Positions 45,183 to 58,076 of a stretch of 64,000 bases of DNA are shown here, one piece after another. The stretch lies in sequence record OR983333.1; one strand, 5' to 3'. A model generated the notes under the pieces. The model was not told the origin of the DNA. It worked only from the letters and a program-made list of their open reading frames with translations, and did no database searches. The stretch is from Escherichia phage 1-6af. Every line of letters begins with the position of its first letter. Within the stretch, counting starts at the first letter, position 1. A program made the translations under genes and the position numbers.

Positions 45183-45545
45183 CTATTGGTTTTTAATTAA
45201 CTCAATCGACTTACGGATATAAAGAATATCTCGGAAGTTTCGATAGTTGTTCATAAATTGATGCTTCTGGAACTCAGCTTCTTCCAGAGCTTTCTTTGCT
45301 TCTGCGTAGTTTTTACGGGCAAGATGTACAACCCGCTCTGGTAACACGTTTGCACGATGGATTAGATACTTATGAGCTTTCATGTTACTTTGCTCACGAG
45401 CAATCTTACCTTTAGCAACCTTGATACCATTTGCAATCCAAGCAAGTTCTTGCTCAAGCTCATCGTTGGACATTCCACCGAGGTTTGATGCAACCTTGTT
45501 CAGAGTTTCAATATTAACGTTGCCCTTGATGGGACGTGTATTCAT
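45183..45545 (-). CDS. hypothetical protein
   Basis: 120-aa helical ORF, first gene of the ligase operon. Confidence 0.4.
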   Translation of the reverse strand: MNTRPIKGNVNIETLNKVASNLGGMSNDELEQELAWIANGIKVAKGKIAREQSNMKAHKYLIHRANVLPERVVHLARKNYAEAKKALEEAEFQKHQFMNNYRNFRDILYIRKSIELIKNQ

Positions 45546-45547
45546 AC

Positions 45548-45700
45548 TTACTCCTGTTGTTTACACTCGTCAATAACCCACTGATAAGTGGATTGCCCAG
45601 AAAAGAAACACTGAATAAATCCAGATGTTCTCTGCGTTACCAGTGCTAGTGCACAAATCACTACCGCTGCTGCTAGCAGTTTTAAATCTAATTTAGACAT
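45548..45700 (-). CDS. small signal-peptide-like protein (50 aa)
   Basis: Below cutoff; ATG 45700 with GAGG RBS; hydrophobic N-terminus; hand translation. Confidence 0.3.
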   Translation of the reverse strand: MSKLDLKLLAAAVVICALALVTQRTSGFIQCFFSGQSTYQWVIDECKQQE

Positions 45701-45926
45701 ATTTCCTCTCGTTGAATTTAAAAAAGGACTCTCCGAAAAGAGTCAAGCTTTAAATACAAAAAGATATTACCCAATATCTGTGGATAACCTGCTCTTAAAA
45801 TATCTATCCGACGGATGTTCGAGGAATGTTCCTCTCCCTAGCATCGGCCCCATACGGGAAATATATTAAGATTAGGTTAGTTGAGTCAGAATAACTCACA
45901 TAGCCCTCCGAAGAAGGCTATAGGTG

Positions 45927-46160
45927 TTACTCGCCTTTCTTAGCACGGTCTTTGGCAGTCTTGCCAGTGCGGATGCGGTGTGAAACGTTAACCAGAGTGC
46001 CACCTTCAACTACAGTAACGCTCTTGTTTTTAGCCAGATCAAACACAGTCTTCTCTGTGCCGCCCAAGCGAATTTGCTTAGGCTCACTGAAGGTTTGGGT
46101 TGATTTAGATTGGAACTGGAATGGTTGACGGATTGCATCAATTGCGCTTACTTTAGACAT
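45927..46160 (-). CDS. hypothetical protein
   Basis: 77-aa basic ORF with AAGGAA RBS. Confidence 0.4.
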   Translation of the reverse strand: MSKVSAIDAIRQPFQFQSKSTQTFSEPKQIRLGGTEKTVFDLAKNKSVTVVEGGTLVNVSHRIRTGKTAKDRAKKGE

Positions 46161-46266
46161 AGGGGAAATTCCTTAAAAAGTCATGGCTGCGTAGAGGGAA
46201 TTCCCTACGCAAATTGGGCCGCCCACAGAGAGGCGTCATAGTACTAAAAGGAGGAGAGAAGAAGGC

Positions 46267-46383
46267 TTATTTAGCTACCTTTTTCTGTCCATTTACGAAC
46301 CAGATAATTGAACCATCAGGCTGTCGTTGACCGAAGCCTTTCTGGTTAATCATATCGTCATAAGAATATGCTTTACGTCTCAT
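46267..46383 (-). CDS. hypothetical small protein (38 aa)
   Basis: Below cutoff; AGGAAAA RBS; hand translation. Confidence 0.25.
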   Translation of the reverse strand: MRRKAYSYDDMINQKGFGQRQPDGSIIWFVNGQKKVAK

Positions 46384-46394
46384 TTGTTTTCCTA

Positions 46395-46607
46395 TTAACA
46401 GGCGTAGTTACTTAGATACACATGCCGATCTCTCAGCACCTCACCAAGAAAAGATTTGTAATCTTCTGTTATGTCAGAATAAAACTTCTCTTTAGCTTCT
46501 TCCTCAGACACTTTCCACAACTTAGAAAGTTGGTTGAACAATACTTCCTCAGAGGAGAACAGTAGGTATGCATTCTGGATGAGTATATCTTTCTCTTCTT
46601 GAGTCAT
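46395..46607 (-). CDS. hypothetical protein
   Basis: 70-aa ORF; operon context. Confidence 0.4.
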   Translation of the reverse strand: MTQEEKDILIQNAYLLFSSEEVLFNQLSKLWKVSEEEAKEKFYSDITEDYKSFLGEVLRDRHVYLSNYAC

Positions 46608-46614
46608 AGATCAC

Positions 46615-46863
46615 CTATGAAGTTAAAATAATCTCAGCCTTAATAAACTTCTCACCAACAACCATATCTCCAGACACAGGACGAACTTCTCCAGTTCCTA
46701 AGTTAACAGCTCCAGCAGGTTGACAACCTATGCTCTTAGCTGTCAGCATGTAAATCTTTTGAAGATGGCACTCTTGGAGAGTGAACACATCTGACATGTT
46801 TAGATCTTTAACACGGAGGACTGTTTCCTCTTTGCTCTTAACTTTAATATGAATAGTGCTCAT
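46615..46863 (-). CDS. small beta-rich protein (paralog family member)
   Basis: About 80 aa; shares a loose motif with the family described in findings. Confidence 0.4.
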   Translation of the reverse strand: MSTIHIKVKSKEETVLRVKDLNMSDVFTLQECHLQKIYMLTAKSIGCQPAGAVNLGTGEVRPVSGDMVVGEKFIKAEIILTS

Positions 46864-46865
46864 AA

Positions 46866-47111
46866 TTACTCCTGAACCACTGACATACGAATCATTTCAA
46901 CCTGAGTATCACTTTTCATAACACCCAGAACACCAGTCATAAGATTAACTGTAGTAATCCAACCTTCTTCGACAGAGATCTTATTGGATACATTGGTAAC
47001 TCGCATATAATACTGAGGCGATGCTAAACCTTGTTGGATTACGAAAGGGTTTCCGGGAATAATTGTATCCAGTGAAACAGTTTTATCTTTAATCTTGGGA
47101 AGGATCTTCAT
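46866..47111 (-). CDS. small beta-rich protein (paralog family member)
   Basis: LxxIPGNPF motif; tandem with neighbours. Confidence 0.45.
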   Translation of the reverse strand: MKILPKIKDKTVSLDTIIPGNPFVIQQGLASPQYYMRVTNVSNKISVEEGWITTVNLMTGVLGVMKSDTQVEMIRMSVVQE

Positions 47112-47359
47112 TATGTGTTATCCACCAAAAGTTCTGCTGACACAGGAACAACTCGGCACCAGATAGAAGGTGCTGTTACGTTACCATCGGATAAACGAAG
47201 GGTAATTGCTCGATCAGAGTTAACGGTTACATTAGGACTTTCAGACACAGACCCTTTAACATAGAGAGTAGCACTCTCAGGGAATTTAAATACTGCTCCG
47301 CTGGGAAGGGAGTTGATATCAACCGTGGTCACTTCTTCTTTCTTGTGAGTAATCTTCAT
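47111..47359 (-). CDS. small beta-rich protein (paralog family member)
   Basis: INSLPSGAVF motif; ATGA overlap with neighbour. Confidence 0.45.
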   Translation of the reverse strand: MKITHKKEEVTTVDINSLPSGAVFKFPESATLYVKGSVSESPNVTVNSDRAITLRLSDGNVTAPSIWCRVVPVSAELLVDNT

Positions 47360-47367
47360 ATTGATTC

Positions 47368-47679
47368 CTATTTAAGTTTGAGGCTAATATTAAGGTGCAT
47401 ACATGCCCTGTTCTGTACAGCAGCATAGCTTCTACCGAGCATGTCAGCCATTCTCTGAATAGACATGAACCCAGCATTACGGATAAGGAACTGGTCTTCT
47501 TCTTCAGACCATTTAACTCGGATTGAAGCTCTTGATATTCCGAATTTAGTGCAAGCTGTATTAACTGCATTCTCCGTTACATTCATAATCTGAGCAACTT
47601 CTTTAACCGAGTACTCTTTGATTAGTCTCCGAAGATTTTCAATCTGCATCGGAGTCCATATAGTTCTTCGTGCTTTCAT
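47368..47679 (-). CDS. HTH DNA-binding protein (two tandem HTH-like repeats)
   Basis: Two repeats of W..E......S..E.A.....AV pattern (sigma region-4 / Myb-like); GGAGG RBS. Confidence 0.45.
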   Translation of the reverse strand: MKARRTIWTPMQIENLRRLIKEYSVKEVAQIMNVTENAVNTACTKFGISRASIRVKWSEEEDQFLIRNAGFMSIQRMADMLGRSYAAVQNRACMHLNISLKLK

Positions 47680-47706
47680 ACATCCTCCAATTAGATATTA
47701 TTCGAT

Positions 47707-47853
47707 TTGGTTACAGGTGTAGGATTCGAACCTACGCTCGGACTCCCTAGCCATCACCAAAGGAATGCATCCAATGGGCATACGGTCATTTGACCACGGG
47801 CGACTGCTTTACCGTAGGCTCTGCATTAGTGAGCCTCATAAGCTATACCTGTA
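47707..47853 (-). other. tRNA-like element of non-canonical length
   Basis: Minus strand reads GTAGG-TTCGAAT-CCTAC (T-arm), ACCTGTA, A, CCA; the only complementary 5' acceptor (TACAGGT) lies about 147 nt upstream, so no standard cloverleaf. Confidence 0.3.
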
Positions 47854-47982
47854 ACTAATTGCCAGGGATTCCACCTGGCTCCATCTGTTTTTAAAGTCAC
47901 TCAGATATCGTCCGGACTCTTTGCTGAGGGCCGTACAGGCTACTTCAAGTAACTGCTGTAAAGATTATTCCACAGCTTACCA

Positions 47983-48081
47983 CGATGAGGAGGTGCCTCA
48001 TCAGGAGAGTACACTAGCTCTGGGCCACGCCGTAGATATCGGCCTCCCTTCTACAGCTAATCAGCTAGTGTACTCTCCTGA
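47983..48081. repeat. nested inverted repeats (7-bp hairpin plus 20-bp perfect inverted repeat with 43-nt spacer)
   Basis: GATGAGG-aggtg-CCTCATC, then ATCAGGAGAGTACACTAGCT ... AGCTAGTGTACTCTCCTGAT. Confidence 0.6.
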
Positions 48082-48327
48082 TAATTTATAAATAGGGGGA
48101 GGGGACGAATCCTCCCTTATCCTATTAATTAGTATTGCATGTAAGATCTAACAATCGGTTGCCTTTGTAGGAATAAGCGTTATGCTAATCCAGCACTAAA
48201 CTCCCGCCCCCTTAGTGGGCTGGGTTATTAAAGGGTAACGCCCTTATGGGCTAGTTACATGAATGTTAGTTTGATAGGAGATCTGAAGTCCTATCTCAAA
48301 GGACTCTCGTAAGAATCCTTCACGATA

Positions 48328-48459
48328 TTACTTATTCATCTCTCGTCGGCTATCTCTCCAAGCCAACCAAGTGTAGGTTTTCAGTTCTTCAAAGTCTTCT
48401 GGAGAGAATAGATACTCTTTGAAGGTATCACCAAACCACTTTAAAAATTCTTCAGTCAT
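48328..48459 (-). CDS. hypothetical small protein (43 aa)
   Basis: Below cutoff; hand translation; weak AAGAGA RBS. Confidence 0.25.
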   Translation of the reverse strand: MTEEFLKWFGDTFKEYLFSPEDFEELKTYTWLAWRDSRREMNK

Positions 48460-48468
48460 AATATTCTC

Positions 48469-48642
48469 TTAGCAAGACTGGTCACACGGCTGATCACCGC
48501 ATGTTTTACAAATTACTGGTGAATAACTACAGGCAGGGTAGACAGAAACCCCATCCCATGTCTCACACCCACAATCAGGACATGTGCCGTTTGATTCCAT
48601 GTCATCATCGTCATCTACTTCACCGCCACCAAAACAACTCAT
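48469..48642 (-). CDS. small Cys-rich zinc-binding protein (57 aa)
   Basis: Below cutoff; ATG 48642 with AAGGAG RBS; CPDCGC ... CKTCGD..C pattern; hand translation. Confidence 0.4.
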   Translation of the reverse strand: MSCFGGGEVDDDDDMESNGTCPDCGCETWDGVSVYPACSYSPVICKTCGDQPCDQSC

Positions 48643-48651
48643 ACAGGCTCC

Positions 48652-48873
48652 TTAGTAAACTAAACCTATAGCCTTTGCATCGGGCTGAGGGACTACCTTT
48701 GCGCTAGGGCGATAACCATCCACTGAACCATTCCAAAGGTTGACACAGGTAATATACCCATCGTCTATGATGTCTGTTTTAATCCAGAAGTGTTTATCAT
48801 GACCAAAGATACTTCCGTTTGGCAGCGTGGACAGTTCAGCGGTTTTAAGTGACTGCTTAGAGTCTAGTTTCAT
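48652..48873 (-). CDS. small beta-rich protein (paralog family member)
   Basis: LSTLPNGSIFG..KHFWI motif. Confidence 0.45.
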   Translation of the reverse strand: MKLDSKQSLKTAELSTLPNGSIFGHDKHFWIKTDIIDDGYITCVNLWNGSVDGYRPSAKVVPQPDAKAIGLVY

Positions 48874-48880
48874 AATAACC

Positions 48881-49129
48881 TCAATTATCGTAGCATGTAT
48901 TCCAATACATGTAGTTAACGTACGTTCTCGGTTTGATTCCGTACATGATGAAGTGAGTCTTCTTGATCCTTTCCTTCAGCGTGTAATAAAGGCCATCACT
49001 GAAGTTACCAATCTTTACTTGGAAGCGTAAGGAGCGAGCATCCATTCGAAGCATGGAGATTAGCTGTACCCTACTACCTCCAGCCATCTCTTCAAGAAGC
49101 TTCTTTGTATTCCAATAATGAGCTGTCAT
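48881..49129 (-). CDS. hypothetical protein
   Basis: 82-aa ORF; operon context. Confidence 0.35.
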   Translation of the reverse strand: MTAHYWNTKKLLEEMAGGSRVQLISMLRMDARSLRFQVKIGNFSDGLYYTLKERIKKTHFIMYGIKPRTYVNYMYWNTCYDN

Positions 49130-49130
49130 A

Positions 49131-49412
49131 TTACCACTCCTTACCGGTTGTTGTTACAGAACCACCACACCACTGTGCATCTGACAAGGTTTTAGTTTCC
49201 TCATCTACTGCTGCACCGTTCAGGCATGAGATACCACTGTAACGCATATCAATTTCACCAGAAGGAACCTTCTCACCTTTGTGCCAGCGAGAAACACAAA
49301 CACCTTCCACTGCTACTGCACACCATCCATCAGGACGGCTCTGTACGCAGCCTGTAAGGGCTATGCAGACAAGGAAGATACATATTAAGGATATTACACC
49401 ACCCCATGACAT
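49131..49412 (-). CDS. lipoprotein
   Basis: Signal peptide with lipobox LTGC from internal Met; GGAGG RBS; ORF track extends to 49469 over the palindromic element. Confidence 0.45.
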   Translation of the reverse strand: MSWGGVISLICIFLVCIALTGCVQSRPDGWCAVAVEGVCVSRWHKGEKVPSGEIDMRYSGISCLNGAAVDEETKTLSDAQWCGGSVTTTGKEW

Positions 49413-49420
49413 AACACACC

Positions 49421-49510
49421 TCCAAGAGCCTCTAGCGAGGATGACAGGGTTCGAACCTGCATACTCCAATTACTTCTTTAACGACCGCTTAGAAGGCGGG
49501 GAAGATACAT
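49421..49510. repeat. palindromic tRNA-like intergenic element
   Basis: 13-bp perfect inverted repeat TCTAGCGAGGATG ... CATCCTCGCTAGA enclosing GGTTCGAACC and a CCGC-CTTCTAA-GCGG stem-loop (minus sense). Confidence 0.45.
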
Positions 49511-49525
49511 CCTCGCTAGAAGCTC

Positions 49526-49966
49526 TTATTTATTATTGAAACCCTTGCTCCAGTAATACTTACCGTTGCAAGACCTACTACAAAAATGGTTTTGGTTTTC
49601 TTTGTGGACCTTGTTACCCCTTCTCTCAAAAGATGTGCCACAATTACTACAAATCAAAGTAATGACCACACCCTTAGGTCTGTTCTCTAAGGTCTTCTTT
49701 AGGTGATCATTTGTGCTTAGAATCTGAAGGTTAGATATCTCATCATTGGTTGGATTTTGATCAACATGATCTACCTCTTCCTCCGCAGTAAGATACCTCC
49801 CTACATGGCAAGACATTAAATACCTTGCATAAGAGATCGTAGTCCTATCTGTGTTAGAATTGAATAGGTCAACACGCCTCCTCCCATCCTTACTTGTCCT
49901 TAAATACCCCAACCTCCAGTCATTGATGAAGGGGTATTCCAACTCTATTTTCAATACCACCTCCAT
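49526..49966 (-). CDS. HNH homing endonuclease
   Basis: HNH motif EEVDHVDQNPTNDEISNL...NDH plus C-terminal zinc ribbon. Confidence 0.65.
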   Translation of the reverse strand: MEVVLKIELEYPFINDWRLGYLRTSKDGRRRVDLFNSNTDRTTISYARYLMSCHVGRYLTAEEEVDHVDQNPTNDEISNLQILSTNDHLKKTLENRPKGVVITLICSNCGTSFERRGNKVHKENQNHFCSRSCNGKYYWSKGFNNK

Positions 49967-49989
49967 TGAGCTAAGGGTGCTAGATTTGT

Positions 49990-50199
49990 TTAACTAAAGA
50001 TACGAATGGCTACATCGTGACCAATATGACCGGGAACTTTATGCTGTTCTATTTTCAAACAGTGTTTACAGATACGAGATACACGAGATTCTTTTCTCTC
50101 GACCGGAGTGTCTTTAGCGTGGGTGATATGTAGGTTCTCAGTGATCACCCACTCGTGTTTACATCCAGAATCTTCGGGCTTTTTCTTACGAAAGAACAT
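49990..50199 (-). CDS. small zinc-ribbon protein (tandem paralog 1)
   Basis: MFFRKKKP...CKHEW...CKHC; start at internal Met of ORF 49990..50241. Confidence 0.4.
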   Translation of the reverse strand: MFFRKKKPEDSGCKHEWVITENLHITHAKDTPVERKESRVSRICKHCLKIEQHKVPGHIGHDVAIRIFS

Positions 50200-50207
50200 A
50201 ACACCCC

Positions 50208-50372
50208 TTAGATCAGATCTGTTTTCTTGTGCAGACCACACACTTTACAGCGAGAGTAGATACGCAACCCTTGTCGCTCTCTGTCAGTAAGTTTATTTGT
50301 GATCGTCAGTTCATAAGTATGAAGATCTTCCCACTCATGGAAATGAAAGAAGCGTTTGAACCATTTGATCAT
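50208..50372 (-). CDS. small zinc-ribbon protein (tandem paralog 2, 54 aa)
   Basis: Below cutoff; hand translation MIKWFKRFFHFHEW...CKVCG. Confidence 0.35.
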   Translation of the reverse strand: MIKWFKRFFHFHEWEDLHTYELTITNKLTDRERQGLRIYSRCKVCGLHKKTDLI

Positions 50373-50381
50373 AATGATTCC

Positions 50382-50543
50382 TTAGATTACATCACGATGA
50401 CTAACATCACCACACACCTTACACTGAATAACGTAACGTGTGCCCTTGTCGTTATTCCCATCTGAATCTGTATAGACCAGAGGGCGAGTATTAATAATCT
50501 TCCAATCATGACAATGAAAGACACGCTTTAGCCACTTGAACAT
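50382..50543 (-). CDS. small zinc-ribbon protein (tandem paralog 3)
   Basis: MFKWLKRVFHCHDW...CKVCG from internal Met; the N-terminal 58 codons of the ORF-track call look non-coding. Confidence 0.35.
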   Translation of the reverse strand: MFKWLKRVFHCHDWKIINTRPLVYTDSDGNNDKGTRYVIQCKVCGDVSHRDVI

Positions 50544-50550
50544 ATTAACC

Positions 50551-50802
50551 TCAAGCACAAGCAGGGAGAGTGATGATTTTATACTGACCATCAAACTCAC
50601 TAAACAAACCCAAGAATGTAGGACTGTACGTACCAGTGCAAACAAACTCATCAAACAATGCGTTATAGCTAGGCTTAATCTTCCAAGCCCATACATAACC
50701 CATCTTGTCAATTGCAATGTAACGAGTGTTCAGAGGAACAGTCATCATCACACCGTCAACTTCGATCACTTTAGTGATTGGTGCAGCTTGAAAGTTTTTC
50801 AT
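50551..50802 (-). CDS. hypothetical protein
   Basis: 83-aa ORF; operon context. Confidence 0.35.
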   Translation of the reverse strand: MKNFQAAPITKVIEVDGVMMTVPLNTRYIAIDKMGYVWAWKIKPSYNALFDEFVCTGTYSPTFLGLFSEFDGQYKIITLPACA

Positions 50803-50984
50803 ACTTTACCTTTGATAAAAATATCATTACCACAGACACAGCATGAACGAACAACAGTAGCGCCACGCTGAACGATACGAACCTCTTCCTTAACCAGATT
50901 AATACGAGCACCGCAGCAAGGGGAGTTGACATAAGAGTAACCAGCTTGCGTATGTTTTATTGTTTGCTTAGACATTTTATTCAA
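50799..50984 (-). CDS. zinc-ribbon protein
   Basis: CCG ... CCVCG Cys clusters. Confidence 0.4.
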   Translation of the reverse strand: MNKMSKQTIKHTQAGYSYVNSPCCGARINLVKEEVRIVQRGATVVRSCCVCGNDIFIKGKV

Positions 50985-51321
50985 GATCTCTCAGTTGTTC
51001 AGCCATTTGTTCGCATTCGTTGATGCAGAAAGCTTCTGTTCTTGGAACCCCGTTAGGGTTGAACCGTGTCTTATCACCTGCATGGGCACAATCAAATCCG
51101 ATTGTATTTAAACCACCCATCTCTTCAAGGGTGTCTTGCCATGTGACACCACCATGAACACTTACATAACAAACCTTTTCCTTTCCGTTATATCCGGTGA
51201 AGTTTTTATGTTTTAAGCTGTCTGGTAGCTCTACATATCCACAAAAATGGGAGTCGTTCATGTGCATAATCACAGCACGAAGACCTGATTTAGTGACCCA
51301 ATCTTTAACCATGCGTCTCAT
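50977..51321 (-). CDS. hypothetical protein
   Basis: 114-aa ORF with His/Cys/Asp-rich segments. Confidence 0.4.
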   Translation of the reverse strand: MRRMVKDWVTKSGLRAVIMHMNDSHFCGYVELPDSLKHKNFTGYNGKEKVCYVSVHGGVTWQDTLEEMGGLNTIGFDCAHAGDKTRFNPNGVPRTEAFCINECEQMAEQLRDLE

Positions 51322-51365
51322 ATAAGCACCTCTTGTTAGTTTAAGTAAGAGTTGTCCCTTAATTA

Positions 51366-51393
51366 AAACAACAAAGGCCGCCCGAAGGCAGCC
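51366..51393 (-). terminator. intrinsic terminator
   Basis: GGCTGCC-ttcg-GGCGGCC hairpin with T-rich runs on both sides. Confidence 0.5.
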
Positions 51394-51402
51394 TTTTATT
51401 TA

Positions 51403-51543
51403 TTAACTGTTATACGTCCAACCACCTTGCTTGTTACGAATGGCTGACATTGCATGAATCCAAAAGCCTTCCAGTTTCAGAGCACCGTTAGCTACTGCAT
51501 CCATACGTTCAGGGCGGTTCATACGTTTGGTTGATACTTTCAT
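51403..51543 (-). CDS. hypothetical small protein (46 aa)
   Basis: Below cutoff; hand translation. Confidence 0.3.
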   Translation of the reverse strand: MKVSTKRMNRPERMDAVANGALKLEGFWIHAMSAIRNKQGGWTYNS

Positions 51544-51901
51544 ACCTATCTCTCTTTGTTAGTGGAGGCATTATTGCCAGTTGATATAAGGAATAGCCCT
51601 AGTCAGTAGACTAATCCTGACCGCGTACTCATTGCCGACCTTCTCTGCCTAAGAGTTCAGGTTCTAGAGCTATCTCTTATTCCAACTGGTGAAGACTCCC
51701 TACCCCTAGGAAGTCTCCTGAATCCCAAACTAATACGTACCCCTACATATCAGAAAGTCTTTCGAAAATTAACAGGTTTTAGTCTAGCACCGGATGTTCG
51801 AGCAAGCTCTCCCTAGCGGTGTGGCATATGCCTGAATTAATAAGTTAATGAGGAACACCCTCACATAGCCCTCTGATAAACACAAGGGCTATAAGTCGGT
51901 G

Positions 51902-52120
51902 TTACTTTTGAGTCAAATACAAATCAGGGCGAGGCATAACAGTGGTTGATGGATTGAAATTACCAACATAACCAGTGCTTAGATTGGCAGCCCTGCGTAG
52001 TCCATTAGAGAGATCATCATCTAGCATCAGCCAGAATTTTTGATCATAAGAGAAAACATCTCCCCCTTTAAGATCTTCCACATTTGCATATTTAGGAGTC
52101 TCAACTACTTTAATTTCCAT
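51902..52120 (-). CDS. small beta-rich protein (paralog family member)
   Basis: VEDLKGGDVF..QKFWL motif. Confidence 0.45.
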   Translation of the reverse strand: MEIKVVETPKYANVEDLKGGDVFSYDQKFWLMLDDDLSNGLRRAANLSTGYVGNFNPSTTVMPRPDLYLTQK

Positions 52121-52378
52121 CTACTTACCCTTGTTGGTAATAATAACATCATGAAGAAGAACAATCTTGCTTTTCGAGCTAAGCTTAAGGACTTGCTTAT
52201 TTGTCAGACTGAGGACGACACAACCACCATCAGAAGGCTTGGTCTCTTCAATCTGTGGGGTAAATAGCTGAACAACCATGTAGAAATCTGTTCGTGTTTC
52301 CCTGATTTGGAATACATCTCCAAGTTTGAGATCACCAACACACAAAGACGGTTCCTTTACTTCAAGATTAATCTTCAT
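52121..52378 (-). CDS. small beta-rich protein (paralog family member)
   Basis: VGDLKLGDVF...FYMV motif. Confidence 0.45.
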   Translation of the reverse strand: MKINLEVKEPSLCVGDLKLGDVFQIRETRTDFYMVVQLFTPQIEETKPSDGGCVVLSLTNKQVLKLSSKSKIVLLHDVIITNKGK

Positions 52379-53787: not shown

Positions 53788-53816
53788 ATAAAAAAGCCCC
53801 AGCCGTAGCCGGGGCA
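53788..53816 (-). terminator. intrinsic terminator
   Basis: GC-rich hairpin GCCCCGGC / GCTGGGGC followed by TTTTTT on minus. Confidence 0.5.
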
Positions 53817-53875: not shown

Positions 53876-53900
53876 CGCAAAAAGCCGCTCAAAGGCGGCT
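53876..53900 (-). terminator. intrinsic terminator
   Basis: AGCCGCC-tttga-GCGGCT hairpin followed by TTTTTGCGTT on minus. Confidence 0.45.
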
Positions 53901-53956
53901 ATGCGGAAGCTTCAAATGGGGAGAGGGCACGACGCTACAGAAAGAGCGTCATAGTA

Positions 53957-54130
53957 CTAAAAAGAGAGGCTATTGGAGAGGTTACTTATTGCCTTCCTTA
54001 ATGCCTTGTTTTCTTGTTTAACCAATTCGTTTTCTTCTTGCAAGGATGCTACCAGATGGACCAGAACATCAACTACTGCATCACCTTGCCGCATCTCTCT
54101 GACTTTATTTAGAATCTCTGAATAAATCAT
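53957..54130 (-). CDS. hypothetical small coiled-coil protein (57 aa)
   Basis: Below cutoff; ATGA overlap with upstream stop; its stop lies inside a conserved motif. Confidence 0.3.
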   Translation of the reverse strand: MIYSEILNKVREMRQGDAVVDVLVHLVASLQEENELVKQENKALRKAISNLSNSLSF

Positions 54131-55294: not shown

Positions 55295-55396
55295 CTTTGA
55301 TTAGATTCTTTGATTAATGCACTGAATCAATGCACTGATAAAAGAAAAGGCGCTACCCGTTAAGATAGCGCCTTATGCTTATTTGAATTGTCTTAC

Positions 55397-57743: not shown

Positions 57744-58076
57744 GGCAATTTCTTGCCTTGTATGTTTTACATCGTACCCGATGAAATGAAGTATACGCTA
57801 ATCAGATGAGATTGCAATAGGGTAAAGCAAATTATTTTAAACTTTTTCACTATAGGAAGGTAAAAGAGCAGGCGCACGCGATACATCATAGAAAACGGCT
57901 TGTAAAGCGATATTTAGCGGCCTAAAACGCATCACAACGAGCTAAAAGGGAGTAAGGCATACACTCACCTCATAAAAGAGAAAAGCCTCACTAGGAGGCT
58001 TACAGGAAGGATTAGAGAATCAGATAGATTATGACCATAGGCATGACTACGGCACAATACAGAAGAAAGATTAAGC

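What the first reader, a model, noticed from the sequence alone, without database searches (positions are those of the whole stretch)
45701..45926. Conserved intergenic module, copy 1: covarying nested stems around conserved single-stranded motifs
Two intergenic regions (this one and 51543-51901) share the same layout after a gene stop: a hairpin with a conserved ATAGCC(C)T/AGGGCTAT stem but different loops (one closes on a UUCG tetraloop in RNA sense), then about 40-50 nt on an element where GGATGTTCGAG and CTCTCCCTAGC are conserved while the enclosing stems differ with compensatory changes (CCGA/TCGG and GAGGAA/TTCCTC here; CACCG/CGGTG and GAGC/GCTC in copy 2). Such covariation argues for a selected RNA structure. 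This copy also has a single perfect DnaA-box-like TGTGGATAA at 45779-45787.
Basis: seen in the sequence. Interest (0 to 1): 0.6.

Follow-up and report, generated by a model that had tools for sequence, protein, structure and literature searches.

The report
Folded phage RNA cassette, anti-nrdD arm
Two spacers between early genes of a phiEco32-like coliphage encode the same conserved folded RNA cassette, and one copy continues into a stretch complementary to the leader of the host's anaerobic ribonucleotide reductase mRNA (nrdD), so it is probably a phage small RNA aimed at host DNA-precursor synthesis.

Summary
The window is a phiEco32-like (Kuravirus) coliphage whose early genes lie on the minus strand. 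Both spacers carry the same unit in gene sense: stop codon, hairpins H1 and H1b, a G-free A/U linker, a small hairpin H2, then the module H3, which has an invariant 7x7 internal loop (CUAGGGA/GAACAUC).

Across 26 distinct sequences from Kuravirus, SU7-like and Salmonella 7-11-like phages, 99.8% of stem cells pair, and 9 of 22 pairs show double-sided changes. Recurrent G.U pairs mark the sense strand as the folded one. There are exactly two copies per kuravirus. There is no Rfam match, no gp36 promoter motif and no origin signature.

New finding: the 'DnaA box' in copy 1 lies inside a ~34-nt stretch complementary to the E. coli nrdD mRNA leader (-44 to -10, beside the Shine-Dalgarno sequence). 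The predicted duplex is -48 kcal/mol, and the stretch is followed by an Hfq-type intrinsic terminator.

Best reading: a structured early-transcript cassette, with copy 1 yielding an anti-nrdD riboregulator. The biochemical role of H3 itself is unresolved. Rival readings are a put-like antiterminator, plain RNA processing, and a DNA-level DnaA site.

The parts
45927..45929 (-). Copy 1: stop codon (TAA) of the upstream gene, embedded in the conserved RTAAC string that starts the unit
   Evidence: RNAalifold pairs this string with GUUAUUC downstream of H1
45900..45922 (-). Copy 1 H1: UAUAGCCUUC-UUCG-GAGGGCUAU hairpin
   Evidence: 8 pairs, 100% paired, 2 with double-sided changes
45883..45897 (-). 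Copy 1 H1b: GAGUUA-UUC-UGACUC hairpin (alternative to the extended base of H1)
   Evidence: SU7 lineage has GAGCUA/UGGCUC (compensatory); copy 2 has GAGG/CCUC at the same place
45859..45882 (-). Copy 1 G-free A/U-rich linker (AACUAACCUAAUCUUAAUAUAUUU). Its UAACCU..CUUAAU part is the 5' strand of the junction-closing helix and resembles the nrdD leader in sense
45849..45858 (-). Copy 1 H2: CCC-GUAU-GGG
   Evidence: variants CCC/GGG, GCC/GGC, GGC/GCC; 2 of 3 pairs change on both sides
45808..45847 (-). Copy 1 H3, the 'module': outer stem CCGAUG/CGUCGG, invariant 7x7 internal loop CUAGGGA/GAACAUC, inner stem GAGGA/UCCUC, hypervariable apical loop
45770..45803 (-). Copy 1 stretch complementary to the host nrdD mRNA leader (-44..-10): AUAUUUUAAGAGCAGGUUAUCCACAGAUAUUGGG. 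It contains the DnaA-box 9-mer at 45779-45787, and its 5' part is the 3' strand of the junction-closing helix
45720..45744 (-). Copy 1 intrinsic terminator GACUCUUUUCGGAGAGUC-C-UUUUUU, preceded by an A/U-rich tract; the RBS and start of the next gene follow at 45710-45698
   Evidence: annotated as terminator in the SU7 and 7-11 records; conserved with compensatory changes
51902..51904 (-). Copy 2: stop codon of the upstream gene within the conserved AGUAACAYC string
51865..51893 (-). Copy 2 H1: UAUAGCCCU..AGGGCUAU hairpin with a long loop
51850..51862 (-). Copy 2 H1b: GAGG-GUGUU-CCUC
51833..51849 (-). Copy 2 G-free A/U-rich linker
51823..51832 (-). Copy 2 H2: GGC-AUAU-GCC
51788..51821 (-). Copy 2 H3 module: outer stem CACCG/CGGUG, the same 7x7 loop, inner stem GAG/CUC with a CUUG loop
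51568..51753 (-). Copy 2-specific leader hairpins. H5 (51730-51753) and H6 (51691-51718) both have UAGGGGUA loops. H7 is a long hairpin (51578-51688) whose apex 51600-51666 is homologous to the N-gene leader of P22-like phages. H8 is 51568-51577. The RBS and a 46-aa gene follow
51373..51396 (-). Intrinsic terminator after the 46-aa gene that follows copy 2

Best explanation
Both spacers encode, on the gene-sense (minus) strand, a conserved folded RNA cassette that is part of the early transcripts made by host RNA polymerase. The cassette consists of the stop codon, H1/H1b, a G-free A/U linker, H2 and H3. H3 is a weak hairpin held together by an invariant, probably non-canonically paired 7x7 internal loop, the kind of site that a protein or a tertiary contact recognises. 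In copy 1 the cassette is the 5' part of a non-coding RNA of roughly 150-210 nt. After H3 comes a ~34-nt stretch complementary to the leader of the host nrdD (anaerobic ribonucleotide reductase) mRNA, ending next to its Shine-Dalgarno sequence, and then an A/U tract and an intrinsic terminator with a U6 tail, which is an Hfq-type 3' end. In the free RNA this antisense stretch is half-sequestered in a junction-closing helix with an upstream sequence that mimics the target. Pairing with nrdD mRNA is predicted to displace that helix. I therefore read copy 1 as a 3'-UTR-derived or processed phage small RNA that base-pairs with nrdD mRNA and alters its translation or stability. Repression is the default expectation, because the duplex reaches -10. 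The shared H1-H3 unit is then the processing and stabilising (or protein-binding) scaffold, and copy 2 reuses it as the head of a long structured 5' leader. What is shown: the fold, its conservation and covariation, the folded strand, the copy number, the complementarity and its specificity, and the terminator. What is inferred: that the RNA accumulates, where its 5' end lies, Hfq involvement, the effect on nrdD, and the biochemical role of H3.
For: Structure: 26 distinct sequences from three lineages and two paralogous copies give 99.8% paired cells against 86.0% in shuffles and 45% or less in slid controls, 9 of 22 pairs with double-sided changes, and a covariation score of 0.357 against 0.125 (0/500). 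U.G pairs recur, which is possible only on the sense strand. The sense fold has z = -4.55 and the antisense fold z = -2.6. A non-canonical pair next to the inner stem switches A..G <-> C..A, with A..A intermediates, in both copies and in the 7-11 group (Fisher p = 1e-4). The spacer is conserved from Kuravirus to the 7-11-like Grimontviridae although the flanking genes differ. nrdD link: copy 1 matches one site in 5423 of 5426 E. coli genomes, the nrdD leader, on the opposite strand. The duplex is -48.3 kcal/mol against a shuffle mean of -16.8, sd 3.3. Co-folding gains -22.9 to -29.5 kcal/mol against -6.1 (best -13.5) for shuffled targets, with every cassette hairpin and the terminator kept. 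Kuravirus flanks outside the box match E. coli best (22/28, other genera 19 or fewer). The target motif CUGUGGAUAACCUGUUCU is conserved across Enterobacteriaceae leaders. The two single-base differences in the phage core are both wobble-compatible, and one metagenomic 7-11-like variant is a perfect 19-nt complement. In 50,697 phage records the nrdD leader matches only this phage group, on the strand opposite the early genes where the gene strand was checked (phiEco32, 1-6bf). The terminator is conserved with compensatory changes.
Against: There are no transcript data, so the 5' end, abundance and Hfq binding are all inferred. The part that is invariant in all phage lineages is essentially the DnaA box plus CC (TGTGGATAACC). 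The Salmonella-phage versions do not follow Salmonella-specific flanks and give weaker duplexes (-30 to -35 kcal/mol), so a DNA-level reading of that stretch remains open. The antisense stretch is partly buried in an internal helix that is itself supported by covariation. Nothing explains why the 14 loop nucleotides of H3 or the stem sequence of H1 are invariant. Copy 2 has no host complementarity and no terminator right after the cassette, so the sRNA reading covers copy 1 only. It is not obvious why a phage without its own reductase would repress a host one.
Confidence: 0.45

Rival explanations
1. Put-like or nut-like processive antitermination. The two adjacent hairpins H2-H3 in the nascent early transcript would bind the elongating host RNA polymerase, directly as HK022 put RNA does or through a small phage protein as at lambda/P22 nut sites, and let it read through the intrinsic terminators that punctuate the long early operon.
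For: There are two copies per genome of a ~55-60-nt, two-hairpin RNA separated by one unpaired base, with conserved unpaired nucleotides and covarying stems. That is the same general design as putL/putR. Each copy lies upstream of a strong intrinsic terminator that is followed at once by further early genes with no recognised promoter. In copy 2 the module occupies the place that nutL holds upstream of the homologous N-leader segment in P22-like phages. The purine-rich internal loop is the kind of site that arginine-rich peptides bind (my own knowledge).
Against: There is no sequence similarity to putL/putR read from the HK022 genome, no boxA in sense orientation and no boxB-type loop. Three or four strong terminators (58.0, 55.37, 53.90 and 53.81 kb) lie between the strong early promoters and the first module, so the module is not promoter-proximal to them. 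The candidate 46-aa basic protein after copy 2 has no annotated function and no homolog in the 7-11-like loci that carry the module.
Confidence: 0.15
2. Plain mRNA punctuation. The G-free A/U linker would be an RNase E cleavage site. H1/H1b would protect the 3' end of the upstream message, and H2/H3 would protect the 5' end of the downstream RNA. The resemblance to the nrdD leader would have no RNA-level role.
For: A single-stranded, G-free A/U linker bracketed by stable hairpins occurs in both copies. It sits right after a stop codon in a polycistronic early operon. The apical loop of H3 is free to vary.
Against: Protective hairpins need pairing, not sequence. Yet 14 loop nucleotides of H3 and 6 base pairs of H1 are invariant across two phage families. 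H3 is thermodynamically weak (-9 to -15 kcal/mol), which makes it a poor protective hairpin. This reading does not account for the highly specific nrdD match. As an RNase III site H3 fails: its stems are 6+5 or 5+3 bp against 9-10 bp perfect upper stems in T7 sites, and the motifs are unrelated.
Confidence: 0.2
3. DNA-level element. The invariant TTATCCACA with nrdD-like flanks would act as a high-affinity DnaA site on phage DNA, for example as a decoy that titrates DnaA (de-repressing host reductase genes or blocking host initiation), as a roadblock before the terminator, or as part of a replication start.
For: The 9-mer is perfect and invariant in all copy-1 sequences from both phage families, even where the flanks drift. 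It has the CTGTGGATAAC form conserved in nrdD leaders well beyond Enterobacteriaceae. The E. coli nrdD leader itself carries two perfect boxes.
Against: It is a single isolated box. The only other perfect box in the window is 40 kb away, there is no cluster of near-matches, and GC skew shows no inflection, so origin criteria are not met. The similarity to the E. coli leader extends about 12 nt on each side of the box in E. coli phages. Substitutions there are wobble-compatible and the same nucleotides take part in a covarying RNA helix. A DNA site does not explain the rest of the cassette or copy 2.
Confidence: 0.15
4. Promoter or recombination cassette, like the 'promoter-early stem-loop' modules of T4-type phages. 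H1 would be a stem-loop, the A/T-rich linker an early sigma-70 promoter that starts transcripts at H2, and the repeats would mediate gene shuffling.
For: Copy 1 has one weak sigma-70-like match (CTGACT-18-TATATT, 9/12). SU7-type copy 2 has a perfect TATAAT 7-8 nt before H2. The flanking genes differ between lineages while the unit is kept.
Against: The promoter-like match is within chance expectation and its hexamers are not conserved in SU7, 7-11 or copy 2. Conservation is highest in what would be the spacer, and covariation shows selection on pairing, which a promoter does not need.
Confidence: 0.05

Closest known systems
Hfq-dependent, 3'-UTR-derived or phage-encoded base-pairing small RNAs (e.g. 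CpxQ-type 3'-UTR sRNAs; lambda PreS acting on dnaN, bioRxiv 10.1101/2024.10.31.621285)
   Same: Copy 1 lies at the 3' end of a transcription unit. It ends in an intrinsic terminator with a U tail preceded by an A/U tract, and it carries a stretch complementary to the translation-initiation region of a host mRNA involved in DNA synthesis.
   Different: The complementarity is much longer (about 31 of 34 nt) than a usual seed and is half-buried in an internal helix with a target-like sequence. A large conserved structured 5' domain (H1-H3) is attached, and that domain also occurs without any antisense arm in copy 2. Expression, Hfq binding and regulation are untested. The phage is virulent, not temperate.
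HK022 put RNAs (putL, putR)
   Same: Two copies per phage genome in early operons transcribed by host RNA polymerase. Each is about 60-70 nt with two adjacent stem-loops, conserved unpaired nucleotides and covarying stems, upstream of terminators.
   Different: There is no sequence similarity. The module is not placed ahead of the first terminators. Binding to the beta' zinc-binding domain is unknown. Stem I of put forms a triplex, which has no counterpart here.
T7 early-region RNase III processing sites (R0.3, R0.5, R1, R1.1, R1.3)
   Same: Repeated hairpins with an internal loop and a family-specific conserved sequence, lying between genes of an early polycistronic mRNA.
   Different: T7 sites share AAGGUC..GGCCUUUAUGAU, with a 9-10 bp perfect upper stem and about 20 bp in all. 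The module has 5-6 bp plus 3-5 bp stems around a 7x7 loop and an unrelated sequence.
Lambdoid nut sites and the N-gene leader (P22-like phages)
   Same: Copy 2's leader contains a 67-nt segment 80% identical to the leader between nutL and gene N of P22-like phages, in the same orientation. The module sits where nutL would be.
   Different: No boxA or boxB is present. The downstream 46-aa protein is not an N homolog. The P22-like apex is present in only some kuraviruses.

Membership tests
Any Rfam family | Match to a curated covariance model at or near its gathering score | tested here: not met
   Whole window at gathering thresholds gave only a tRNA at 49436-49514. A permissive scan of 45500-52200 found nothing on either spacer's cassette.
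HK022 put RNA | Sequence similarity to putL/putR (e.g. CGAACGGC, GGUYCARGGAUGA, CAAUG) | tested here: not met
   putL and putR were read from NC_002166; they share no motif with the module.
HK022 put RNA | Two adjacent stem-loops of ~70 nt in the nascent early transcript | tested here: met
   H2 and H3 are separated by one unpaired base, span ~51 nt (copy 1) and ~45 nt (copy 2), and covary.
HK022 put RNA | Located downstream of the early promoter and upstream of all terminators it suppresses | tested here: inconclusive
   Each copy precedes one strong terminator, but terminators at 58.0, 55.37, 53.90 and 53.81 kb precede copy 2. Internal promoters are only weak predictions.
HK022 put RNA | Binds RNA polymerase beta' zinc-binding domain and suppresses pausing and termination in cis | not testable with these tools
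   Needs transcription assays.
Lambdoid nut site | boxA (CGCUCUUUA-like) followed by a boxB hairpin with a GNRA-like pentaloop, plus an N protein with an arginine-rich motif | tested here: not met
   There is no boxA in sense orientation; the only boxA-like string (TGCTCTTAAAA) is on the antisense strand. H3's apical loop is hypervariable. The adjacent small protein has no family annotation.
RNase III processing site (T7 type) | About 20 bp irregular helix with a 9-10 bp upper stem and the conserved T7 loop sequence | tested here: not met
   the module's stems are 6+5 or 5+3 bp and the sequence is unrelated.
Hfq-type base-pairing sRNA | Intrinsic terminator hairpin with a U-rich tail and an upstream A/U-rich tract | tested here: met
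   GACUCUUUUCGGAGAGUC-C-UUUUUU preceded by UUUUUGUAUUUAAAG, conserved in all lineages.
Hfq-type base-pairing sRNA | Conserved complementarity to a target mRNA near its ribosome-binding site | tested here: met
   nrdD leader -44..-10; -48.3 kcal/mol; unique site in E. coli; specific to this phage group. Weaker for the Salmonella phages.
Hfq-type base-pairing sRNA | Accumulates as a discrete RNA, binds Hfq, and regulates the target | not testable with these tools
   No transcriptome data for this phage group were found in the library.
gp36 (phage sigma) promoter | tAATGTAtA motif 6-8 nt upstream of the start site | tested here: not met
   The consensus comes from PMC4331800 and PMC4281155; it is absent from both spacers.
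DnaA-dependent replication origin | Cluster of DnaA boxes beside an A/T-rich unwinding element; skew inflection | tested here: not met
   A single box with no nearby near-matches; the cumulative skew is monotonic through 45.7 kb.
T4-type promoter-early stem-loop cassette | Stem-loop followed by a conserved sigma-70 early promoter | tested here: not met
   Only a 9/12 match in copy 1, none in copy 2, and not conserved in relatives.

The most novel reading that the evidence does not exclude
The shared H1-H3 cassette is a reusable RNA scaffold and processing unit onto which these virulent phages have grafted captured leader sequences. In copy 1 the graft is the host nrdD leader in antisense, giving a trans-acting small RNA that reprograms the host's anaerobic ribonucleotide reductase. 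In copy 2 it is a P22-type N-gene leader in sense, heading a phage mRNA. The invariant 7x7 loop of H3 would be the docking site for a still unknown host or phage factor common to both.
Probability: 0.2. Interest if true: 0.8.

Novelty: new member of a known kind. Interest (0 to 1): 0.6.

Why it matters
Regulatory RNAs of virulent phages are almost unexplored. Here a specific, testable target emerges from sequence alone: a phage RNA, conserved across two phage families and about 100 isolates, that is complementary to the most conserved part of the nrdD leader next to its ribosome-binding site. If confirmed, it would show a lytic phage tuning host deoxynucleotide supply under the anaerobic conditions of the gut with an RNA rather than a protein. 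It would also draw attention to an unstudied conserved element in the nrdD leader of Enterobacterales, which carries a perfect DnaA box. The shared H2-H3 module is a new, well-supported RNA motif with an unusually large invariant internal loop. Finding its partner (RNA polymerase, a nuclease or a chaperone) would add a new handle on how phiEco32-like phages organise their long early operon.

Tried and rejected
- **Rfam:** gathering and permissive scans found nothing on the cassette. ARAGORN found no tRNA.
- **gp36 promoter:** the motif is absent.
- **sigma-70 promoter in the linker:** only a chance-level, unconserved match.
- **Replication origin:** a single box and no skew signal.
- **Small ORF in copy 1** (ATGGGGCCG..., 28 codons): truncated in 7-11 and absent from copy 2, and stem covariation argues against coding.
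- **RNase III site:** geometry and sequence do not fit real T7 sites.
- **put family:** no sequence similarity.
- **Protein partners:** there is no ProQ/FinO homolog in this phage, although 7-11-like phages have one. The 46-aa basic protein after copy 2 is unannotated and was not found in the 7-11 loci.
- **More distant copies:** IMG/VR and metagenome pattern scans returned only kuravirus or 7-11 relatives plus a few chance hits without an outer stem. The patterns required the conserved loops exactly, so diverged relatives would be missed.
- **Host-specific tracking in Salmonella phages:** not shown. The core pairs, but the flanks do not follow the Salmonella leader.
- **Literature:** the two key phiEco32 papers (PMC3275717, PMC2587145) are not held. 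One literature search was too loose to be useful. No paper links nrdD to a phage sRNA.
- **UAGGG as a general motif:** strongly enriched in copy 2 but only modestly in non-coding DNA overall.
- **First duplex script:** it timed out and was rerun smaller.
Full report
**Setting.** The window is a phiEco32-like coliphage (Kuravirus), 99.5% identical over the tested 7.5 kb to Escherichia phage 1-6bf. All genes around the finding are on the minus strand, so I read everything in that sense. According to the literature on this group, the region belongs to a long early operon transcribed leftward by host sigma-70 RNA polymerase from strong promoters at its far end. Middle and late genes use the phage sigma gp36, whose promoters carry tAATGTAtA.

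**Checking the observation.** Both intervals are spacers between minus-strand ORFs. A profile HMM of the shared part and a covariance model run with filters off (127.6 and 113.1 bits, next best 13 bits, E about 0.6) find no third copy. In gene sense the layout is as follows:
- The stop codon of the upstream gene sits inside a conserved RTAAC string.
- Hairpin H1 follows (UAUAGCCYU...AGGGCUAU; copy 1 closes on C(UUCG)G).
- A second hairpin, H1b, comes next.
- A G-free A/U-rich linker of 17-24 nt follows.
- Then comes a 3-bp hairpin, H2.
- One unpaired base separates H2 from the 'module', H3.

H3 has a 5-6 bp outer stem, a symmetric 7x7 internal loop (CUAGGGA opposite GAACAUC), a 3-5 bp inner stem and a 4-nt apical loop.

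**Is the structure selected?** About 100 sequenced relatives carry each spacer. I collected 17 distinct copy-1 and 15 distinct copy-2 sequences from Kuravirus, the SU7/ECBP2 lineage and the Salmonella 7-11-like phages, which belong to a different family, the Grimontviridae. In the 7-11 group the flanking genes differ (an endolysin gene follows the spacer), yet the ~225-nt spacer is kept.

On a 26-sequence alignment of the shared unit, H1, H2 and both stems of H3 (22 pairs) gave the following:
- 99.8% of cells form standard pairs, against 86.0% in column shuffles (0 of 500 reach it) and 33-45% when partners are slid by 1-3 columns.
- 9 pairs have changes on both sides, covering 72 cells.
- The covariation score is 0.357 against 0.125 (0/500).

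Examples of the changes:
- **H3 outer stem:** CCGAUG/CGUCGG, UCGGUG/CGCCGA and (A/U)CACCG/CGGUG(U/A).
- **H3 inner stem:** GAGGA/UCCUC, GAGCA/UGCUC, GAGCU/GGCUC and GAGAC/GUCUC.
- **H2:** CCC/GGG, GCC/GGC and GGC/GCC.

H1b also covaries: GAGUUA/UGACUC becomes GAGCUA/UGGCUC, and copy 2 has GAGG/CCUC. Recurrent U.G pairs would be C.A mismatches on the other strand, and the sense strand folds better than the antisense strand (z = -4.55 against -2.6). So the gene-sense strand is the folded one.

The base on each side of the inner stem switches together, A..G to C..A, with three A..A intermediates. This happens repeatedly in both copies and in the 7-11 group (Fisher p = 1e-4). From my own knowledge, that set of pairs fits a sheared-type non-canonical pair, which suggests the large loop is structured rather than floppy. 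The apical loop of H3 varies freely even between near-identical phages, while the 14 loop nucleotides never change. These shuffle controls do not remove relatedness. Most double changes trace to a few events: lineage splits plus the ancient duplication that gave copies 1 and 2. Even so, no stem is ever broken.

**What the cassette is not.**
- **Rfam family:** none matches.
- **gp36 promoter:** the motif is absent.
- **sigma-70 promoter:** the only match (copy 1, 9/12) is within chance expectation and is not conserved.
- **Replication origin:** skew simply follows transcription, with no inflection at 45.7 kb. The perfect DnaA box is isolated; there are two in 64 kb and no local cluster.
- **T7-type RNase III site:** real T7 sites have their own motif and 9-10 bp upper stems, whereas H3's stems are 6+5 or 5+3 bp.
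- **HK022 put RNA:** putL and putR, read from the genome, share no sequence with the module.
- **Short ORF in copy 1:** it is not conserved.

**Copy-specific continuations.** Copy 1 continues as a three-way junction. UAACCU...CUUAAU in the linker pairs with AUUUUAAG...AGGUUA downstream of H3, with three pairs changing on both sides in the 7-11 group. Then come an invariant single-stranded UCCACAG, a small hairpin (absent in 7-11), an A/U tract and an intrinsic terminator (GACUCUUUUCGGAGAGUC-C-U6). That terminator is conserved with compensatory changes and is annotated as a terminator in two relatives. The next gene's ribosome-binding site follows within 15 nt.

Copy 2 has no such junction. Instead it runs into five more hairpins before the ribosome-binding site of a 46-aa gene. 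Two of them display a UAGGGGUA loop on arms that differ completely between lineages. The longest exists in at least four arm versions. One version has an apex 80% identical over 67 nt to the leader between nutL and the N gene of P22-like phages, in the same orientation.

**The nrdD link.** Comparing copy 1 with 5,426 complete E. coli genomes gave an unexpected result. Bases 45800-45759(-), which include the 'DnaA box', match one unannotated chromosomal site in 5,423 genomes. That site is the leader of nrdD, the anaerobic ribonucleotide reductase gene, and the match is to the opposite strand. So the phage sense RNA is complementary to nrdD mRNA from about -44 to -10, ending next to the GGAG Shine-Dalgarno sequence. 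It forms 24 consecutive pairs (one G.U), one U.U mismatch and then 6 more pairs.

The supporting numbers are these:
- **Duplex energy:** -48.3 kcal/mol, against -16.8 +/- 3.3 for shuffled phage segments.
- **Co-folding:** with the full-length copy-1 RNA, the intermolecular duplex replaces the junction helix while H1, H1b, H2, H3 and the terminator stay folded. The gain is -22.9 kcal/mol (-29.5 for an RNA starting in the linker), against a mean of -6.1 and best of -13.5 for shuffled targets.
- **Target conservation:** CUGUGGAUAACCUGUUCU is conserved in nrdD leaders of Enterobacteriaceae, and its CUGUGGAUAAC core also occurs in Serratia, Yersinia, Pectobacterium and Proteus, among others.
- **Host-specific flanks:** outside the core, the kuravirus sequence matches E. 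coli-specific flanks best (22/28, against 19 or fewer for other genera).
- **Wobble-compatible changes:** the two single-base differences between phage lineages and the host core are both transitions that give G.U in an RNA duplex. One metagenomic 7-11-like variant is a perfect 19-nt complement.
- **Specificity:** searched against 50,697 phage records, the nrdD leader hits only this phage group. In the records where I know the gene strand (phiEco32, 1-6bf), the match is on the strand opposite the early genes.
- **Other checks:** copy 2 has no host match, and the phage has no NrdD of its own.

**Limits of the nrdD reading.**
- The Salmonella enterica leader shows that the 7-11-type RNAs pair with the 18-nt core, but their flanks do not follow Salmonella-specific sequence. 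Their predicted duplexes are weaker (-30 to -35 kcal/mol).
- What is strictly invariant in all phages is TGTGGATAACC, essentially a strong DnaA box. A DNA-level function therefore cannot be excluded, for example a DnaA decoy, which could also raise host reductase expression.
- The placement of the motif inside the nrdD mRNA is inferred from its position 15-35 nt upstream of the start codon and well downstream of the NrdR-box-like promoter region. I could not confirm the transcription start.
- No transcript data exist for this phage group in the library I could search.

**Most likely mechanism.** I read the shared unit as a structured cassette within early transcripts, and copy 1 as a non-coding RNA built on it. 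It would have a scaffold (H1-H3), an antisense arm against nrdD that is masked by an internal target-like strand, and an Hfq-type terminator. That describes a 3'-UTR-derived or processed small RNA acting on host nrdD translation or stability (confidence about 0.45 for this package, and about 0.9 for 'selected sense-strand RNA structure').

The G-free A/U linker between stable hairpins is a plausible RNase E entry site that would release the RNA. The stop codon lies in a helix that competes with H1b, so a terminating ribosome could toggle the fold. Both of these points are inference. The invariant 7x7 loop of H3 and the invariant stem of H1 imply a sequence-specific partner that I could not identify. 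This phage has no ProQ/FinO homolog, and the adjacent 46-aa protein is unannotated and was not found in the 7-11 loci.

**Rivals.**
- **Put-like antiterminator (0.15).** It fits the two-hairpin, two-copy, terminator-upstream design and the nut-like position of copy 2. It is weakened by the lack of similarity to put and by three or four strong terminators that precede the first module.
- **Plain processing and stability punctuation (0.2).** It fits the layout, but not the invariance of unpaired nucleotides or the nrdD match.
- **DNA-level DnaA site (0.15).** It fits the invariant box, but not the extended flanks, the wobble pattern or the rest of the cassette.
- **Promoter or recombination cassette (0.05).** It has little support.

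These readings are not all mutually exclusive.

**Novelty and verdict.** The cassette is a new, well-supported RNA motif confined, as far as exact-pattern scans of IMG/VR and JGI metagenomes can tell, to kuraviruses and 7-11-like phages. As a kind of thing it belongs with phage small RNAs and structured UTR elements, so I file it as a new member of a known kind. The specific prediction is new, unreported in the literature I could search, and directly testable: a virulent-phage RNA targeting the conserved leader of the host anaerobic ribonucleotide reductase gene.

Noticed in passing
window 47680-48330 (-): A 650-nt stretch without ORFs in the early region. Its 3' end (about 47860-47705) looks like a tRNA with a perfect T arm, a 7-bp acceptor stem and CCA (UACAGGU...GUAGGUUCGAAUCCUAC-ACCUGUA-A-CCA), but with an insert of roughly 80 nt. 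It contains GAUGGCUAGGGAG, nearly the same string as the 5' half of the module. ARAGORN and Rfam do not call it.
   Followed up: partly
window 47860-47918 (-): Inside that gap, a 59-nt segment matches unannotated DNA (81-88% identity) in only 15 of 5,426 E. coli genomes, presumably a prophage or other mobile element.
   Followed up: no
window 49436-49514 (-): A tRNA-like gene (anticodon UCU) scores just above the Rfam threshold (29.7 bits) and is missed by ARAGORN. Compared with phiEco32 tRNA-Arg, it lacks the D arm and has an 18-nt insertion before the T arm.
   Followed up: partly
window 51600-51666 (-); L016 1501-1567; L017 1501-1567: The apex of the long hairpin in copy 2's leader is 80% identical to the leader between nutL and the N gene of P22-like phages (BTP1, ST64T, ST104, L). 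The core is UCGGCAAUGAGUACGCGGUCAGGRUUAGUC. In both phage types it caps a long helix whose arms differ. It shares short words with HK022 put stem II (CGGCAAUG, GGUYCAGGAU), but in a different order. Its function is unknown, and only some kuraviruses have this version.
   Followed up: partly
window 51691-51753 (-): Two consecutive hairpins in copy 2's leader display the same UAGGGGUA loop on arms that differ completely between lineages. UAGGG occurs 5 times in this 359-nt spacer (0.21 expected, P about 3e-6) and also in H3, in the tRNA-like element and in a hairpin at 46207. Enrichment in non-coding DNA overall is modest (p = 0.004).
   Followed up: partly
window 46233-46253 and 53946-53966: Another repeated intergenic string (sense CUCCUUUUAGUACUAUGACGC, 20 of 21 identical) lies in two other early spacers. 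One is next to the terminators at 53.8-53.9 kb and the other is upstream of a GCGUAGGGAAUUCCCUCUACGC hairpin.
   Followed up: no
L030 1488-1600; L111 640-766; L031-L110 (nrdD upstream regions): The nrdD leader of Enterobacteriaceae carries a conserved CUGUGGAUAACCUGUUCU element 15-35 nt upstream of the start codon. Its perfect DnaA-box core (CTGTGGATAAC) recurs in most other Enterobacterales leaders I printed. E. coli and Salmonella each have a second perfect box about 80-105 nt further upstream. I found no paper on it in the library.
   Followed up: partly
window 53796-53815, 53883-53900, 55347-55374, 57983-58001 (-): Several strong intrinsic terminators lie inside the supposedly single long early operon, each followed closely by the next gene. 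This suggests either many internal promoters or regulated read-through.
   Followed up: no
L020 2714-3442; L002 3008-3712: The 7-11-like Salmonella phages encode a ProQ/FinO-family RNA chaperone in their early region. The kuravirus window has no homolog.
   Followed up: partly
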